A program made the translations under genes and the position numbers. Under the pieces are notes generated by a model. The model was given only the letters and a program-made list of their open reading frames with translations. It did not search any database and was not told where the DNA came from. Shown in pieces: positions 40,760-49,128 of a stretch of 64,000 nt of DNA. Origin of the DNA: a virus (taxonomy: Duplodnaviria; Heunggongvirae; Uroviricota; Caudoviricetes); the IMG/VR virus record IMGVR_UViG_3300037512_000782, positions 124,732-188,731 of that record, one strand, 5' to 3'. Positions within the stretch are counted from its first letter, which is position 1. The number at the start of each line of letters is the position of its first letter.

Positions 40760-40831
40760 TCTATCCTAGCTCAATGGTAGAGCGTTCGGCTGTTAACCGA
40801 ATGGTTCCTGGTTCGAGTCCAGGGGATAGAG
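40760..40831 (+). tRNA. tRNA-Asn(GUU)
   Basis: TTCGG-CT-GTT-AA-CCGAA; G73. Confidence 0.95.
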
Positions 40832-40841
40832 CTAATCATTT

Positions 40842-40914
40842 CAGCGTGTAGCTCAGCTGGTAGAGCGCACCGTTCGGGGCGGTGAGGTCGGTGGATCGTT
40901 CCCACTTACGCTGA
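40842..40914 (+). tRNA. tRNA-Pro(CGG)
   Basis: CACCG-TT-CGG-GG-CGGTG; atypical T-loop. Confidence 0.85.
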
Positions 40915-42208: not shown

Positions 42209-42547
42209 ATGATAACCGTTTCACAGATCAACGAACTTCGCCAGCAGACACAAGTGAGCATGCTTCTCTGCAAGCAAGCTCTTGAGGCTACTGACGGTGA
42301 CATGAACCGAGCCAAGGAATGGCTCCGCAGCAAGGGTAGCGAGGTCGCCGGAGACGGCGGATCGTTCGGATACTCTCTGTTCGAGGACGCTACCGAAAAA
42401 CTACAAGGCGTTACCGAAGGTGGCAAGGGTTTCCAATGGACTGATGGCGTAGTATCTATCGACATCCGTGGTTTCGACGGATCGTCTCCGAGAACTCTGT
42501 GGGGAAGCGACAGACGCATGCTGGTCTGCAGACCAGTCAAGGCGTAA
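42209..42547 (+). CDS. EF-Ts N-terminal (UBA-like) domain protein
   Basis: ITVSQINELRQQTQVSMLLCKQALEATDGDMNRAKEWLRSKG matches the EF-Ts N-terminal consensus; the rest is unrelated; AAGGA SD. Confidence 0.8.
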   Translation: MITVSQINELRQQTQVSMLLCKQALEATDGDMNRAKEWLRSKGSEVAGDGGSFGYSLFEDATEKLQGVTEGGKGFQWTDGVVSIDIRGFDGSSPRTLWGSDRRMLVCRPVKA

Positions 42548-42552
42548 CTTCT

Positions 42553-42625
42553 GCCCACGAAGCTCAACTGGATGAGCTGCGGATTTCTAATCCGCTGGCT
42601 GCGAGTTCGACTCTCGTCGTGGGTA
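42553..42625 (+). tRNA. tRNA-Arg(UCU)
   Basis: GCGGA-TT-TCT-AA-TCCGC. Confidence 0.9.
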
Positions 42626-42629
42626 CTAC

Positions 42630-42657
42630 TTGCAATCAAAACACTATTTGCTATATT
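42630..42657 (+). promoter_or_regulatory. Sigma70-like promoter inside the array
   Basis: TTGCAA-16 nt-TATATT. Confidence 0.6.
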
Positions 42658-42668
42658 TCGTACTGTAT

Positions 42669-42739
42669 TGAGCTATGGTGTAACGGTAGCACACGGGATT
42701 TTGATTCCCATAGTCTAGGTTCAAATCCTGGTAGCTCAA
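42669..42739 (+). tRNA. tRNA-Gln(UUG)
   Basis: CGGGA-TT-TTG-AT-TCCCA. Confidence 0.9.
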
Positions 42740-42743
42740 CTAT

Positions 42744-42823
42744 CCGGTTGTGGTGGAATTGGTAGACACGTCAGACTTAGGATCTGGTGCTTATGCGTGT
42801 GGGTTCGAGTCCCTCTAGCCGGA
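42744..42823 (+). tRNA. tRNA-Leu(UAG)
   Basis: TCAGA-CT-TAG-GA-TCTGG. Confidence 0.9.
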
Positions 42824-42839
42824 CTATTAAGAGGTTTCT

Positions 42840-43277
42840 ATGAGACGTTTGTTCATTATCCGCAAGGACTTGAAGTTATCTGCTGGCAAGCTTGCCGCGA
42901 TGGTTGCGCACTGCGCCGAAGGCTACTGGACGCGCCTTATCGCTAGGAATGCCGACTTCGACGGAGACGAGCATTACACAGTCCGATTCCGTTTGGATAA
43001 AGCGGACATGGAAGAATACATCAAGGGCATCTTCAAGAAGACTATCTGCGAGGCGAAGAACCTCAACCATCTTATGAAGGTCAAGGAAGTTGCCGACGGC
43101 CTTGGTCTTGTACAAGGCGAAGATTACGACTTCATCGACGACGCATGCTTGACGGAGCTGACTCCGGAAGCTGTCGACGAGAAGGGCAATGGTTATTGCC
43201 GAGTCGGCGTGTGGTTCAAGCCGCTATCTGACGAGATCAGCCACACGCTGTCCAAGAAGTATCAACTTTATCATTAA
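42840..43277 (+). CDS. pth2: Peptidyl-tRNA hydrolase, Pth2 family
   Basis: FIIRKDLKLSAGKLAAMVAHCA, KKTICEAKN, FIDDACLTE, GVWFKPL..SKKYQLY. Confidence 0.85.
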   Translation: MRRLFIIRKDLKLSAGKLAAMVAHCAEGYWTRLIARNADFDGDEHYTVRFRLDKADMEEYIKGIFKKTICEAKNLNHLMKVKEVADGLGLVQGEDYDFIDDACLTELTPEAVDEKGNGYCRVGVWFKPLSDEISHTLSKKYQLYH

Positions 43278-43282
43278 ACTAT

Positions 43283-43356
43283 GCTGACGTGCCGAAGTGG
43301 GAACGGGTGAGTCCGCAAAACTTTACATTGAGTGTGTTCGATTCACACCGTCAGCT
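43283..43356 (+). tRNA. tRNA-Cys(GCA)
   Basis: GAGT-CC-GCA-AA-ACTT; U73; C33. Confidence 0.8.
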
Positions 43357-43366
43357 CTAACTACTT

Positions 43367-44080
43367 ATGAAATTTGGATTGATCGGAAAGAACATTGGAT
43401 ACAGCAAGTCCAAGGAACTGTTTGACCAATGGAACCTTGACTACCGAGTTTACGACGTTGACAGTGTCGAACAAGGTCTTGAGCTGGTTATTGACGACAA
43501 GCTCGACGGATTCAATGTGACAAAGCCGTTCAAGAAGGACATCATCAAGTATCTTGACGGATTGATGCCCAATGCAGAACGTATTCAGTCAGTGAACTGC
43601 GTGAAGGTGTTTGCCGATACGTTGATCGGCGAGAACTTCGATTGCGATGCATTTCGTAACTCCTTGTGTCATTACATCAGCAATCACGACGCTTGGGAAT
43701 TCGACTTCCCTCACCGAATGGCGATTCTTGGAAATGGCGGCGTGACGCCGTCGATATTGGCTGCGTTACACGAAGTTGTGGACGGCGTTTCATCCAGTCA
43801 CGAGATTACGGTATTCGCTAGGACTCCGAAGGACGGTGAAACACCTATTGCCGAGTTCGATGCGAAACGGTTCGACTTGATAGTCAATACGGTTCCGTTC
43901 GAGGCTGGCATCGACATCGACTTCAACAACAAGGGCAAGTTCATCTATTATGACTTGAACTATGCCGATCGCCGATTGGTCGAGAAGGCTGAACTTAACA
44001 AGCATTGTTCTTGGTCGCTCGACGGCATGGATATGCTGGAACGGCAAGCTGAAATGGCCAAGAACTGGTGGCTGGCATAA
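43367..44080 (+). CDS. aroE: Shikimate dehydrogenase
   Basis: FGLIGKNIGYSKS, GFNVTKPFK (catalytic Lys), SVNC, GENFD, ILGNGG, IVNTVP, YDLNY, DGMDMLERQA. Confidence 0.85.
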   Translation: MKFGLIGKNIGYSKSKELFDQWNLDYRVYDVDSVEQGLELVIDDKLDGFNVTKPFKKDIIKYLDGLMPNAERIQSVNCVKVFADTLIGENFDCDAFRNSLCHYISNHDAWEFDFPHRMAILGNGGVTPSILAALHEVVDGVSSSHEITVFARTPKDGETPIAEFDAKRFDLIVNTVPFEAGIDIDFNNKGKFIYYDLNYADRRLVEKAELNKHCSWSLDGMDMLERQAEMAKNWWLA

Positions 44081-44860: not shown

Positions 44861-45014
44861 ATGTCGCGATGGTGCAATCGAGTGGTCTAAAGCTCGACGC
44901 GGCCTACTAAACGCCGAAGTTACTACATACGGCGATGGCATGTGGGAAAGCACACTCTGCATCTTCCCTGGTAGTAAGCAGAGAGATTGCGGTTCGAGTC
45001 CCAGTCACGACATC
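44861..45014 (+). ncRNA. tRNA-derived RNA with expanded D- and anticodon loops
   Basis: Acceptor ATGTCGCGA/TCACGACAT, D-stem GTGC/GCAC, stem CTCTG/CAGAG, TTCGAGT T-loop. Confidence 0.55.
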
Positions 45015-45018
45015 AAAA

Positions 45019-45130
45019 TGCGATGAACGGTGGTTACCTTATGTAAGGTAGGGGCATCTACCTTTGGGACATGTTGCCCATCTGTGGCAACTCCCAGAAT
45101 CCCACGACTTTAGTCGTGGGAGTATGTCAA
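45019..45130 (+). mobile_element. IS200/IS605-family end (omegaRNA-like remnant), non-autonomous
   Basis: GAATCCCACGACTTTAGTCGTGGGAGTATGTCAA at 45097-45130; no tnpA/tnpB in the window. Confidence 0.7.
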
Positions 45131-45845
45131 GTAGCAACGCCTAGTAGTTGGAACTCCGTAGCGCATAGCGGACGTTAAAATAAAGAGTGCGCAGCCTTTT
45201 GTTAGGAACTAAAAATCGTGCTGAGGCGGCTGTACGACAGAGCCGGGTGAATCATGATCATCTATGCACGATACCGAGGGGATAGAGAGATTAGGGATCC
45301 GTCAACCGAGTACGTATAGGCCGGATACGCTCGAAACAGGTCAAAGCAATTTACTGTCGTACGTTTTTGTAACTCACTGAACCAGGTTTTCGAGGGAACG
45401 TTTAACCGCTGGGCACCTAGACCAGCTAGGTGAGTGCCACCGCCGATGGTGTATACGTATCACCGAAGGTTTGTCTGGTTGCTAAAGAAACGTCCCGCCC
45501 ATTATGGAGTCGCTGCCCAAGCAGCGTGGGGCGCGTAAGCGCCGTCTGGTGTGAATGACGTTAAAGACACACTATTCCCCTAGAGGGCAATCGACAATGG
45601 GTCTGGTCGTAAAAGAGCTGCCTCGTACGCCTCCTGCAGTTTCGTTAAGGGAGGCACACCTTTAAAAGCTGGCGTTTCTAGGGCGCATCGTAGCTCCCCG
45701 CATTGGTAGCGGCGACATCGGAGTAAAATCCGTGAGCTGACGTGCAAACTGTGCGTCCCATCAACGAGCGGCCTAATCGTAGGTGTAGGATAAGTTCTCG
45801 GATCTTAGGGAGATCTAAAACCGAGGCCAAGTTTTTATGAGTTTT

Positions 45846-45956
45846 GGATACCAGTGACAGTATACGGTTACTTCGGATAATGATGTGGTTCGACTCCATA
45901 GGGCGAAAGCCCATGCCGCGTGGGCGGCAGCACCCGTATGCGACAATTCTGTATCC
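45846..45956 (+). ncRNA. Y RNA (YrlA-like) Y1
   Basis: GGATAC/GTATCC closing stem; CAGTGACAG-TATACGG-TTACTTCG; T-loop TTCGACT; two further hairpins. Confidence 0.7.
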
Positions 45957-45966
45957 TAAAAAGTTT

Positions 45967-46113
45967 GACGGACAGTGATAGAATAGAGTTTCATCGTACG
46001 CATAAACGAAGAACGTTGGTTCGAATCCAGCCGTCGGTATAAGTTCAAAATTACTCCGACGTCGTCTAGTGGTCTAGGATCTTAAAAAGCTTTGTTCGGC
46101 TAATTCTTCCGTC
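45967..46113 (+). ncRNA. Y RNA (YrlA-like) Y2
   Basis: GACGGA/TCCGTC closing stem; permuted order T-arm, acceptor stem, D-arm. Confidence 0.8.
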
Positions 46114-46140
46114 TTTTTTGATTTTTGAAATGTACTTAAA

Positions 46141-46286
46141 TAATATCTAGCGGTGACAGATTAGAGTTTCATCGACTGTTAATCGAGAGGTTGTTGGTTC
46201 GAGTCCAATCGTGCTAGCTAGTCTGGCATGTAGCTCAATCGGTAGAGCGCTAAAAAAAGCTTTAGTCGCCTATTCCCTAGATATTA
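46141..46286 (+). ncRNA. Y RNA (YrlA-like) Y3
   Basis: TAATATCTAG/CTAGATATTA closing stem; Asn-like anticodon hairpin, T-arm, acceptor, D-arm in permuted order. Confidence 0.8.
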
Positions 46287-46310
46287 TTCAAGTATATTTA
46301 TGTGAAGTTT

Positions 46311-46460
46311 GAACCAGCAGTGATAGGATAGGGATACTTCGCAATAGGTGCCGTGGGTCGTCGGTTCAAATCCGGCTTCGCCGCCTAGCTTTTTATGCGG
46401 CGGATAGCTCAGTCTGGTAGAGCAACGATCAAATCTCTCTGTTCGCCCATTCTCTGGTTC
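46311..46460 (+). ncRNA. Y RNA (YrlA-like) Y4
   Basis: GAACCAG/CTGGTTC closing stem; GTCGG-TTCAAAT-CCGGC T-arm, then acceptor stem, then GCTC..GAGC D-arm. Confidence 0.8.
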
Positions 46461-46659
46461 TTTTTATTTTCTGGTTGGCCATATAGACTAGTGAACAATA
46501 TGGTGAAACCAGCACACCTAACACTGACGACAACGTGACCTTCAGGGATTTGATCACCCAATGATGTGGTCGCCAACCAGTTAATTTAGCGGGGTACGAA
46601 AGTTACCGTGAAAACGTTAGGTAAAGTGTTTAACTACAACTAAAAACAAGGAAGACAAC

Positions 46660-48081
46660 ATGTCAAAGTTAAATCCGTCCACGAAGGGCAATTCAATGGA
46701 CACTACTGTCCGTTTGGCTGGCGGGACCGGTGCTTATGCTGCGAAGTCGTCCAACATCGACACGCTTCGCCGTCTCGTACTCGCCAACTTACTCTGGGAA
46801 GACATTGCTTACGCCGATGGCGAATCAGTGTCCGAAGAAATCTCCAGCCTCATACCGAAGTGTGATGCTGTGGAAGTCGCAAAGCTTGCGGTAGAATGCC
46901 GTGAGAAGCAGAAGTTGCGTCATACGCCGTTGTTCATCGCAGCGGAAATGACGAAGTACGCAACGCATAAGGTTTACGTGAAGGATATCCTTCCGAGGAT
47001 CATCACTCGCGCCGACATGCTCTGTGACTTCCTTGCGATTTATTGGAAGGACAAGAAGCACCCGCTGGCAAATTGCGTGAAGCGTGGTCTTGCTGATGCG
47101 TTCCACAACTTCGACGAATACCAGTTCGCCAAGTATGACCGTGACGCAGTGATCAAGCTCCGCGACGTGCTCCGCATGGTGCATCCGACTCCGCGTAACG
47201 AAGACGAAGCCGCATTGTTCAAGCGCATCAAGGAACGTACCTTGAAGACGCCGGATACTTGGGAAGTCGCGATTTCCGCTGTGTCCGCAGACAAGAAGGC
47301 TGACGAATGGACTCGACTCATCCAAGAAAAGCGTCTCGGTGGTCTTGCGTTCTTGCGCAACATGGCTAACTTTGTGAACAACAAGGTGAAGCGCAGTGTT
47401 GTTGAGGAAGGTTTGAAGAACCTCAAGGGAAGCATGCTCTTGCCGCTTGACTATATCAAGGCTGCGAAGATGGCCTCTGGCTATACTCGCGAAATCGAAG
47501 ACGCGATGATCTCGTCCTACAAGCACTTGCCGAAGCTGCCGGGTAAGACCTTGTTCATCTTGGACAGGTCTGGTTCCATGGGCCGTGCGATCTCCAGCAA
47601 GAGCAATTTCACTCGTCTTGACGTTGCTTGCGCGATGGCTATGTTGGCCTCGAACGTGTGTGAAGACTTCAGCTTGGTCGTAACCGCTGGTGACGACTGG
47701 AAGAAGGTCGCTGCATCGGTCGCTGTCGACTGTCCGCCGCGTGGTTTCTCCATGACCCAAGTGGTCGACCGTTGCAATGTCGGCGGTGGTGGTATCTTCA
47801 CTCGCCAGGTGCTTGAATGGTCTCGCAACCACTTCAAGACCGACGAGTTCGACCGTATCATCGTGTTCTCGGACTCTCAGGACTGCGATCTGCCGTCTAG
47901 GCAGACTCCGAAGCCGTTCGGTAAGTACAACTACATCTGCGACGTAAGCGCAGAGAAGCACGGCATCAACTACCGTGGAGTTTGGACTGCCGAAATCTCC
48001 GGTTGGTCGGAACACTTCTTGACCTATATCGCAGCTTACGAAGGACTTGAAAACAAGTTCGAGAGCGAGTCGATGAACTAA
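46660..48081 (+). CDS. rsr: Ro60-related TROVE-domain RNA-binding protein (Rsr)
   Basis: LRRLVLANLLWED, LRHTP, FDEYQFAKY, KLRDVLRMVHP, TWEVAIS, AFLRNM and vWA MIDAS LDRSGSM...FSDSQ. Confidence 0.9.
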   Translation: MSKLNPSTKGNSMDTTVRLAGGTGAYAAKSSNIDTLRRLVLANLLWEDIAYADGESVSEEISSLIPKCDAVEVAKLAVECREKQKLRHTPLFIAAEMTKYATHKVYVKDILPRIITRADMLCDFLAIYWKDKKHPLANCVKRGLADAFHNFDEYQFAKYDRDAVIKLRDVLRMVHPTPRNEDEAALFKRIKERTLKTPDTWEVAISAVSADKKADEWTRLIQEKRLGGLAFLRNMANFVNNKVKRSVVEEGLKNLKGSMLLPLDYIKAAKMASGYTREIEDAMISSYKHLPKLPGKTLFILDRSGSMGRAISSKSNFTRLDVACAMAMLASNVCEDFSLVVTAGDDWKKVAASVAVDCPPRGFSMTQVVDRCNVGGGGIFTRQVLEWSRNHFKTDEFDRIIVFSDSQDCDLPSRQTPKPFGKYNYICDVSAEKHGINYRGVWTAEISGWSEHFLTYIAAYEGLENKFESESMN

Positions 48082-49054: not shown

Positions 49055-49128
49055 CGGAGTGTAGCTCAGCCTGGTAGAGCATTGGATTTGGGTTCCAAGG
49101 GTCGCGTGTTCGAATCACGCTACTCCGA
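49055..49128 (+). tRNA. tRNA-Pro(UGG)
   Basis: TTGGA-TT-TGG-GT-TCCAA; C1-G72, A73. Confidence 0.95.

What the first reader, a model, noticed from the sequence alone, without database searches (positions are those of the whole stretch)
46171..46250. Y3 and Y4 look like frozen junctions of a tandem tRNA array: a route for Y RNA birth
Seen in Y3: TCGA-CTGTTAA-TCGA (same loop as both tRNA-Asn genes), variable loop, T-arm, acceptor 3' strand CGTGCTA, discriminator G (as in Asn), trailer CTA, short spacer, then 5' strand TGGCATG and a complete D-arm. Y4 likewise has acceptor-C-CTA-GCTTTTTAT-G then a 5' half, matching the CTA...TAT spacers of the real array. Caveat: three bases of the Y3 anticodon stem belong to the conserved Y motif. 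Inference: the 3' part of one tRNA, the spacer and the 5' part of the next were captured into the Ro-binding stem, giving circular permutation without splicing. Y3 and Y2 would display intact anticodon-like loops as bait.
Basis: partly seen in the sequence, partly recalled or inferred. Interest (0 to 1): 0.75.

Follow-up and report, generated by a model that had tools for sequence, protein, structure and literature searches.

The report
Phage Y RNAs keep anticodon loops
These two small phage RNAs are tRNA-mimicking partners of the RNA-surveillance protein Ro60 from a known family; the proposed origin from back-to-back tRNAs is already in print, but comparing about 160 relatives shows that the hairpin published as a "variable arm" is really an anticodon loop, which makes the family's unknown function testable.

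Summary
The anatomy is real. Y3 and Y4 are YrlA-type Y RNAs upstream of the Ro60 gene of a 348-kb phage found in cattle gut. Origin from a tRNA dimer is already published (Wang 2018, citing Sim and Wolin 2018). Y3 is not a frozen local junction. Its G73-CTA occurs only in this genome, and its Asn-type arm is the family's commonest, closer to other viruses' Y RNAs (32/39) than to this phage's tRNAs (22/39). Y4 fits partly. Both halves are tRNA-Pro(UGG)-like, closest to this clade's own Pro gene, and C73-CTA...TAT-G(-1) is kept in 11 of 12 variants, so it looks like a maintained processing site. New: in 160 viral and bacterial relatives the published "variable arm" is a split anticodon arm. Pairs 31-39, 28-42 and 27-43 covary, the loop keeps U33, and U36-A37 or G36-G37 are coupled. 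The Ro60 stem branches from inside the anticodon stem. tRNA-ordered versions exist, which this scan noted before on other DNA; one tandem pair reads as YrlA across its junction, a simpler birth route. A bait or sensor role is plausible but untested.

The parts
46145..46282 (+). Y3: YrlA-type Y RNA gene; permuted tRNA domain with an intact GUU anticodon loop and a closed acceptor hairpin
46151..46174 (+). Y3 5' strand of the putative Ro60-binding stem, ending in the junction motif whose last C and G are tRNA positions 29 and 30
   Evidence: Ro binding inferred from Chen 2014
46175..46192 (+). Y3 tRNA positions 31-48: anticodon loop 46176-46182, 3' stem strand 39-43, variable loop 44-48
46193..46209 (+). 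Y3 T arm
46210..46230 (+). Y3 acceptor hairpin: 7 bp plus a G-C 8th pair around a variable loop; CTA here is not conserved
46231..46251 (+). Y3 D arm and positions 26-28; 27 and 28 pair with 43 and 42
46311..46460 (+). Y4: YrlA-type Y RNA gene with a tRNA-Pro(UGG)-like body and a degenerate anticodon loop (46343-46349)
46377..46404 (+). Y4 acceptor: 7 bp with compensatory changes, C73 (46384) opposite G-1 (46397), CTA trailer and TAT leader kept in 11 of 12 variants; predicted processing site
45966..46113 (+). Y2: Y RNA with a Glu-like D arm, 8-nt CAU-type loop, 1-72 mismatch, A73 and a long variable acceptor loop
45846..45956 (+). Y1: Y RNA with a T arm and two hairpins, no anticodon loop
44770..44845 (+). 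Y0: minimal Y RNA, Ro module with a small hairpin only (ends approximate)
46660..48081 (+). Ro60/Rsr (TROVE) gene, 473 aa, presumed protein partner
   Evidence: Pfam PF05731, E 5e-11
49055..49128 (+). The phage's own tRNA-Pro(UGG), the tRNA type closest to the Y4 body

Best explanation
Y3 and Y4 are YrlA-type partners of the phage Ro60. Shown by sequence comparison: each domain is a circularly permuted tRNA with all four arms, in which the Ro60-binding stem branches out of the 5' strand of the anticodon stem (between positions 28 and 29 in Y3, 29 and 30 in Y4). Y3 carries the family's standard Asn-type loop and a closed acceptor hairpin. Y4 has a Pro-type body, a degenerate loop and conserved array-type ends. 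Inferred: Y4 is opened at the acceptor by RNase P and 3' trimming plus CCA addition, as M. smegmatis YrlA is. Inferred origin: a tRNA-ordered Y gene (a tRNA with the Ro hairpin inside its anticodon stem) was duplicated in tandem and lost its outer halves; the direction is not established. Inferred function, weakest step: the Ro60 particles present different tRNA faces during infection, and the anticodon loop acts as a nuclease-sensitive decoy or damage sensor for a tRNA-repair system that includes the phage RtcB and CCA-adding enzyme. Confidence is about 0.9 for the structure, 0.65 for Y4 processing, 0.55 for the permutation route and 0.4 for decoy or sensor.
For: Register: 75 of 112 viral and 85 of 143 bacterial hits have exactly 18 nt (31-48) between the junction motif and the T arm. 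After thinning relatives to 76 sequences: 31-39 paired in 74, 28-42 in 73, 27-43 in 75; shuffle maxima 48, 53, 55. U33 in 70 of 76; 36-37 is UA in 47 or GG in 19, both types in the same stem contexts, as in real tRNAs. Ro60 is in the same locus for 84 of 112 and 102 of 143. Phage ET08 YrlA, aligned in Chen 2014, has the same register. Y4 ends are kept in 11 of 12 variants while the middle of the spacer changes. 47 tRNA-ordered hits have at least 6 of 7 acceptor pairs, 18 with G-1:C73 and most with CTA, CAA or CCA trailers; L152 is a tandem pair whose junction reads as YrlA. The genome encodes a CCA-adding-type polymerase and RtcB. M. smegmatis YrlA is cut by RNase P and gains CA.
Against: No binding, modification, cleavage or processing data exist for these RNAs. 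Positions 34-35 drift even among close relatives (GUU, GAU, UGU, one 8-nt loop), which fits a modification or structural constraint as well as a decoy. One relative (L016) has lost the Y4 ends. The Y4 tree is weak (74 columns), and its sister is another virus's Y RNA, not a tRNA.
Confidence: 0.55

Rival explanations
1. Frozen junction: Y3 and Y4 are recent captures of a tRNA-spacer-tRNA junction from this phage's own array into a Ro-binding stem.
For: Y4 has CTA...TAT like the array. Un-permuted Y4 scores 54-57 of 74 on average against the clade's Pro(UGG) genes and 42-44 against other Pro(UGG) genes; one variant matches a clade Pro gene at 53 of 56 core positions; its T stem occurs in 4 clade Pro genes and 0 of 56 other Pro genes. 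In several other viruses the Y trailer follows the local tRNA trailer style.
Against: Y3 fails: 17/18 anticodon-arm identity with other viruses' Y RNAs versus 14/18 with own tRNA-Asn, 32/39 versus 22/39 overall; best phage match is the Ro60-adjacent element of Caulobacter phage CcrColossus, 80%. A junction of two different tRNAs would not give paired acceptor and 27-43 strands. Y4's anticodon-stem junction belongs to a Y lineage shared with distant viruses, not to the Pro gene. Y4 differs from Pro at the two end positions (C73, G-1), which match tRNA-ordered Y RNAs.
Confidence: 0.15
2. Structural mimic without a decoy role: the loop is kept because tRNA-modifying enzymes (t6A at U36-A37-A38, m1G at G36-G37) or a tRNA-binding effector such as the ribosome recognise it, and it helps tether Ro60 to that partner.
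For: Constraint falls on 32, 33 and 36-38, while 34-35 take many states. YrlA RNAs are known substrates of TruB and DusA.
Against: Nothing tested. Relatives also carry short Y RNAs that display only an anticodon hairpin with Tyr- or Cys-type loops and no elbow, which suits a loop-specific ligand or nuclease.
Confidence: 0.35
3. Working permuted tRNA: after processing, Y3 acts as a two-piece tRNA-Asn in translation.
For: This genome's Y3 has U1-A72, G73 and GUU, like real tRNA-Asn.
Against: Relatives change the anticodon, base 73 and the acceptor loop independently, and several close it with a tetraloop. GUU-type Y RNAs elsewhere have any base at 73 and often 2-4 nt loops, whereas 77 of 80 real Asn tRNAs have G73. 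The phage already has two tRNA-Asn genes.
Confidence: 0.05
4. Y4 is processed and charged with histidine through its G-1:C73 end, giving Ro60 an aminoacylated handle.
For: C73 and G-1 are kept in 11 of 12 variants; the clade's tRNA-His genes have the same end; C-G is the commonest closing pair in long-loop viral Y RNAs (12 of 42) and in tRNA-ordered forms (18 of 47). That G-1:C73 is the main HisRS determinant is from my own knowledge.
Against: An 8th base pair of any kind is common in the family, so the pair may only extend the stem or be a relic of a His-type ancestor.
Confidence: 0.2

Closest known systems
YrlA Y RNAs (Rfam RF02553; Chen et al. 2014, PMC4201824; structure in Wang et al. 2018, 10.1101/312249)
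   Same: Beside a Ro60 gene on the same strand, long terminal stem, T arm before acceptor before D arm, conserved D stem, several copies; a 'V' stem-loop upstream of the T arm.
   Different: Below Rfam's gathering score; the 5' Ro motif is a variant. The papers read the V stem-loop as a class II long variable arm and say YrlA lacks the anticodon loop; covariation here shows an anticodon arm in canonical register.
Mycobacterium smegmatis YrlA (Chen et al. 2014)
   Same: 7-bp acceptor predicted to be opened by RNase P and given CCA; a direct precedent for Y4.
   Different: Y4 has a G-1:C73 pair, a phage-style CTA trailer and a phage-encoded CCA-adding-type enzyme; processing is not shown here.
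Dimeric pre-tRNA origin model (Sim and Wolin 2018, as cited in Wang 2018)
   Same: T arm from an upstream copy and D arm from a downstream copy.
   Different: There the acceptor stem comes from the spacer and the Ro stem from leftover tRNA arms. Here the acceptor strands are tRNA acceptor strands of one type, the spacer is the loop, and tRNA-ordered Y genes supply the Ro stem.
Circularly permuted tRNA genes of algae and archaea (as described in Wang 2018)
   Same: 3' half before 5' half, with a closed acceptor loop in the precursor.
   Different: Those are spliced into working tRNAs. Here an extra Ro stem stays in the anticodon stem, and anticodon and acceptor identity are uncoupled.
Thermus phage phiLo Ro60 with Yrl1 and Yrl2 (PMC12135203)
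   Same: Phage Ro60 with Y-like RNAs directly upstream; binding shown there.
   Different: In the passages I read those RNAs are hairpins, with no tRNA-like domain or anticodon mentioned.

Membership tests
YrlA Y RNA | Within 4 kb of a Ro60 gene, same strand | tested here: met
   Y3 and Y4 lie 380 and 200 bases upstream of the TROVE gene
YrlA Y RNA | T arm, then acceptor hairpin, then D arm, inside a long terminal stem | tested here: met
YrlA Y RNA | Conserved D-stem and T-loop sequences | tested here: met
   Y3 and Y4 match the Rfam D arm and T loop; Y2 has a Glu-like D arm instead
YrlA Y RNA | 5' GNCGAAN(0-1)G Ro-binding motif | tested here: inconclusive
   A conserved variant (GTG, optional A, one base, AG) sits at that place in all five Y genes and in relatives; not an exact match
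YrlA Y RNA | Rfam RF02553 gathering score of 69 bits | tested here: not met
   36.5 and 37.7 bits; the model has no positions for the anticodon hairpin, so this is filed as a variant
YrlA Y RNA | Bound by Ro60/Rsr in vivo | not testable with these tools
   no binding data
Functional permuted tRNA-Asn | Anticodon and acceptor identity (GUU with G73) conserved together | tested here: not met
Functional permuted tRNA-Asn | Acceptor can be opened to a CCA end | tested here: not met
   Y3 relatives close it with a tetraloop or a short stem
Tandem pair of real tRNA genes (known false positive for YrlA) | Complete tRNA on each side of the junction | tested here: not met
   ARAGORN calls no tRNA at 45800-46500; the Rfam tRNA match is only 21 bits

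The most novel reading that the evidence does not exclude
A large share of YrlA-type Y RNAs in phages and bacteria are four-armed tRNA mimics whose anticodon loop is a substrate for anticodon nucleases. Its cleavage titrates the nuclease or switches Ro60 into tRNA repair. The family flips between tRNA-ordered and YrlA-ordered forms by tandem duplication, and Y4 is a permuted product that is processed back to tRNA-like, possibly His-charged, ends.
Probability: 0.3. Interest if true: 0.8.

Novelty: new variant of a known kind. Interest (0 to 1): 0.55.

Why it matters
What the tRNA-like domain of bacterial Y RNAs is for has been open since 2014, and the published picture has no anticodon loop. 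A conserved loop with tRNA rules at 32, 33 and 36-38 names concrete partners to test (anticodon nucleases, the t6A and m1G enzymes, the ribosome) and links phage Ro60 to tRNA-targeting defence. The coexistence of tRNA-ordered and permuted forms gives a simpler, checkable route for Y RNA origin than capture of a random junction.

Tried and rejected
Rfam at gathering threshold found no Y RNA. A pattern for the exact Y4 ends found nothing in viral contigs; close relatives came from metagenome contigs instead. The loose pattern gave only 13 hits with a Ro60 gene or Ro-type motif nearby and was not used for statistics. The closest viral-contig Ro60 locus (L001) and crAss001 (L002) showed no Y RNA of this type in the stretches read. 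RNA runs: contigs of four cattle-gut metatranscriptomes from two studies cover the cluster and run through the Y3 and Y4 acceptor loops; no CCA end is among the listed loose ends; contigs cannot show ends or prove transcription, so this is inconclusive. Minimum-energy folding misfolds Y3 and is weak for Y3 and Y4 (z -1.6, -1.5), so structure rests on covariation. The Asn-to-Pro(CGG) junction of the array (about 40830-40850) was considered as the Y3 source and rejected: its two acceptor strands cannot pair, and Y3 is closer to foreign Y RNAs. Profile scoring of 5' halves by tRNA type was not discriminating. Sim and Wolin 2018, Sim et al. 2020 and Burroughs and Aravind 2016 could not be opened, so the claim that the anticodon reading is not in print is limited to the papers I could read. 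The tRNA reference set came from loci fetched for other reasons and may hold a few mis-called Y RNAs. The host was not identified.

Full report
Setting. The window lies in a 348-kb virus record held by cattle-gut runs. It has 42 tRNA genes, none with CCA; at least 31 have CTA after base 73 and 27 have TAT before base 1. The genome encodes a CCA-adding-type polymerase and RtcB. A TROVE/Ro60 gene at 46660-48081 is preceded by four Y-like elements, with a fifth short one about 1 kb upstream; all share one 5' motif and junction motif. Rfam YrlA matches Y3 and Y4 with E about 1e-5, below its gathering score.

Observation. Y3 has the Asn loop, variable loop, T arm, 7-bp acceptor, G, CTA and D arm, but no TAT leader. 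Y4 has C, CTA, a T-rich middle, TAT and G.

What is known. [quoted passage not shown] Wang 2018 states the dimeric-tRNA origin model, says YrlA lacks the anticodon loop, and reads the V region as a class II long variable loop. The headline route is therefore in print.

Test of Y3. I collected about 25 loci with Ro60 of 76-98% identity. The loop closing the Y3 acceptor takes seven forms; CTA occurs only in this genome. Near relatives have CTT or CTG, a GNRA tetraloop, another 7-nt loop or a shortened stem, and G73 usually faces a C as an 8th pair. On the Ro60 tree only 'CT' is shared by three related lineages, so a decayed trailer is possible but not shown. The anticodon varies (GUU, GAU, UGU, one 8-nt loop). 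At positions not fixed by my search pattern, Y3 matches Y RNAs of unrelated viruses better than this phage's tRNAs: 17/18 versus 14/18 over positions 31-48, and 32/39 versus 22/39 overall. Its best match among 50,697 phage records is the unannotated element before the Ro60 gene of CcrColossus. GUU is the commonest triplet in the family (16 of 75, 17 of 85), with no fixed base 73.

Test of Y4. C73, CTA, TAT and G-1 are kept in 11 of 12 variants, while the spacer middle changes in length and sequence and the stem shows compensatory changes. That is the pattern of a selected processing signal (inference). Un-permuted, Y4 is tRNA-Pro(UGG)-like in both halves; among 899 tRNAs its best matches are Pro(UGG), and the clade's own genes score higher than others (mean 54-57 versus 42-44 of 74; best core 53 of 56). 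Its T stem occurs in 4 clade Pro genes and none of 56 other Pro genes. However, its anticodon-stem junction is shared with Y RNAs of distant viruses, its loop has lost U33, and it differs from Pro at 73 and -1. So Y4 has exchanged sequence with, or descends from, one resident tRNA type; it is not a junction of two neighbours.

The structural result. Of the non-redundant hits, 84 of 112 and 102 of 143 have a Ro60 match in the locus. In 75 and 85 of them the segment before the T arm is exactly 18 nt and reads as tRNA positions 31-48. Pair 31-39 covaries through all four Watson-Crick types, G30-C40 is nearly fixed, and 27 and 28 are supplied by the strand after the D arm. After thinning to 76 sequences the counts are 74, 73 and 75 paired against shuffle maxima of 48, 53 and 55, and the alternative partner on the 5' strand pairs in only 63. 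Where 41 is not G, the downstream strand also supplies 29 (21 of 22), as in Y4. The loop has a pyrimidine at 32 (68 of 76), U33 (70), a purine at 37 (73) and A38 (69), with U36-A37 or G36-G37 in 66; both types occur in the same stem contexts. The ET08 YrlA of Chen's alignment has the same register with a different 30-40 pair. The published V arm is thus an anticodon hairpin in this subtype, and the Ro stem branches from the middle of the anticodon stem. Limits: the pattern selects the subtype, the shuffles do not fully model relatedness, and S. Typhimurium YrlA lacks the hairpin.

Origin. Earlier notes of this scan described tRNA-ordered Y RNAs on other DNA. I tested this: 47 viral hits have acceptor 5' strand, D arm, positions 26-28, a closed Ro hairpin, anticodon loop, T arm and a matching acceptor 3' strand; trailers are mostly CTA, CAA or CCA and 18 have G-1:C73, including phages whose Ro60 is about 60% identical to this one. 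These are the ends found inside the Y4 loop. In L152 two such genes lie a few bases apart and their junction reads as a YrlA. Tandem duplication of a tRNA-ordered Y gene explains paired halves, a real spacer and the two Ro strands in one step (inference; direction not established).

Mechanism. Shown: architecture and constraint. Inferred: Ro60 binding, Y4 processing, and a role in tRNA-damage conflict. The five RNAs offer different faces: intact loop with closed acceptor (Y3), openable acceptor with degenerate loop (Y4), and in relatives loop-only forms. I put decoy or sensor at about 0.4, recognition by modifying enzymes or another tRNA-binding partner at about 0.35, and decoding at about 0.05. 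RNA contigs could not decide processing.

Verdict. Observation partly confirmed; interpretation partly supported; new variant of a known kind; interest 0.55, carried by the anticodon-arm reading and the permutation intermediate rather than by the stated route.

Noticed in passing
L011:3561-3645, L020:148-230, L026:540-628, L027:9372-9455: Relatives carry short Y RNAs that display only an anticodon hairpin with a Tyr (GUA) or Cys (GCA) loop; the stems differ from this phage's own Tyr and Cys tRNAs.
   Followed up: partly
window 45966-46113: Y2 keeps a 1-72 mismatch, A73 and a CAU-type 8-nt loop in most relatives, a loosely initiator-like set, while its D arm is Glu-like and its acceptor loop varies from 3 to about 38 nt.
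   Followed up: partly
L011:3800-4170, L014:3540-3900, L016:6313-6675, L027:9610-9980 (approximate): Several relatives have a tmRNA-like gene between the Y cluster and Ro60; ARAGORN found no tmRNA in this genome.
   Followed up: no
window 46470-46600: A structured-looking, non-coding stretch between Y4 and Ro60 is kept in some relatives (L020, L035) and replaced in others.
   Followed up: no
window 44861-45014: tRNA-like element with enlarged loops, conserved in L003 and L023.
   Followed up: no
window 45038-45130: Three RNA-run contigs skip these 93 bases, which suggests a small insertion particular to this strain.
   Followed up: no
L445, L420, L435: Roughly 100-kb phages with Ro60 about 60% identical carry tRNA-ordered Y RNAs; L445 has a His (GUG) loop together with G-1:C73, a hint that this end comes from tRNA-His.
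   Followed up: partly
window 42209-44080: EF-Ts N-terminal-like gene, Pth2 and shikimate dehydrogenase-like gene sit inside the tRNA array.
   Followed up: no
L016:6790-6925: A Y4-type RNA that has lost the CTA and TAT ends and has a new closed acceptor; a natural control for processing tests.
   Followed up: partly
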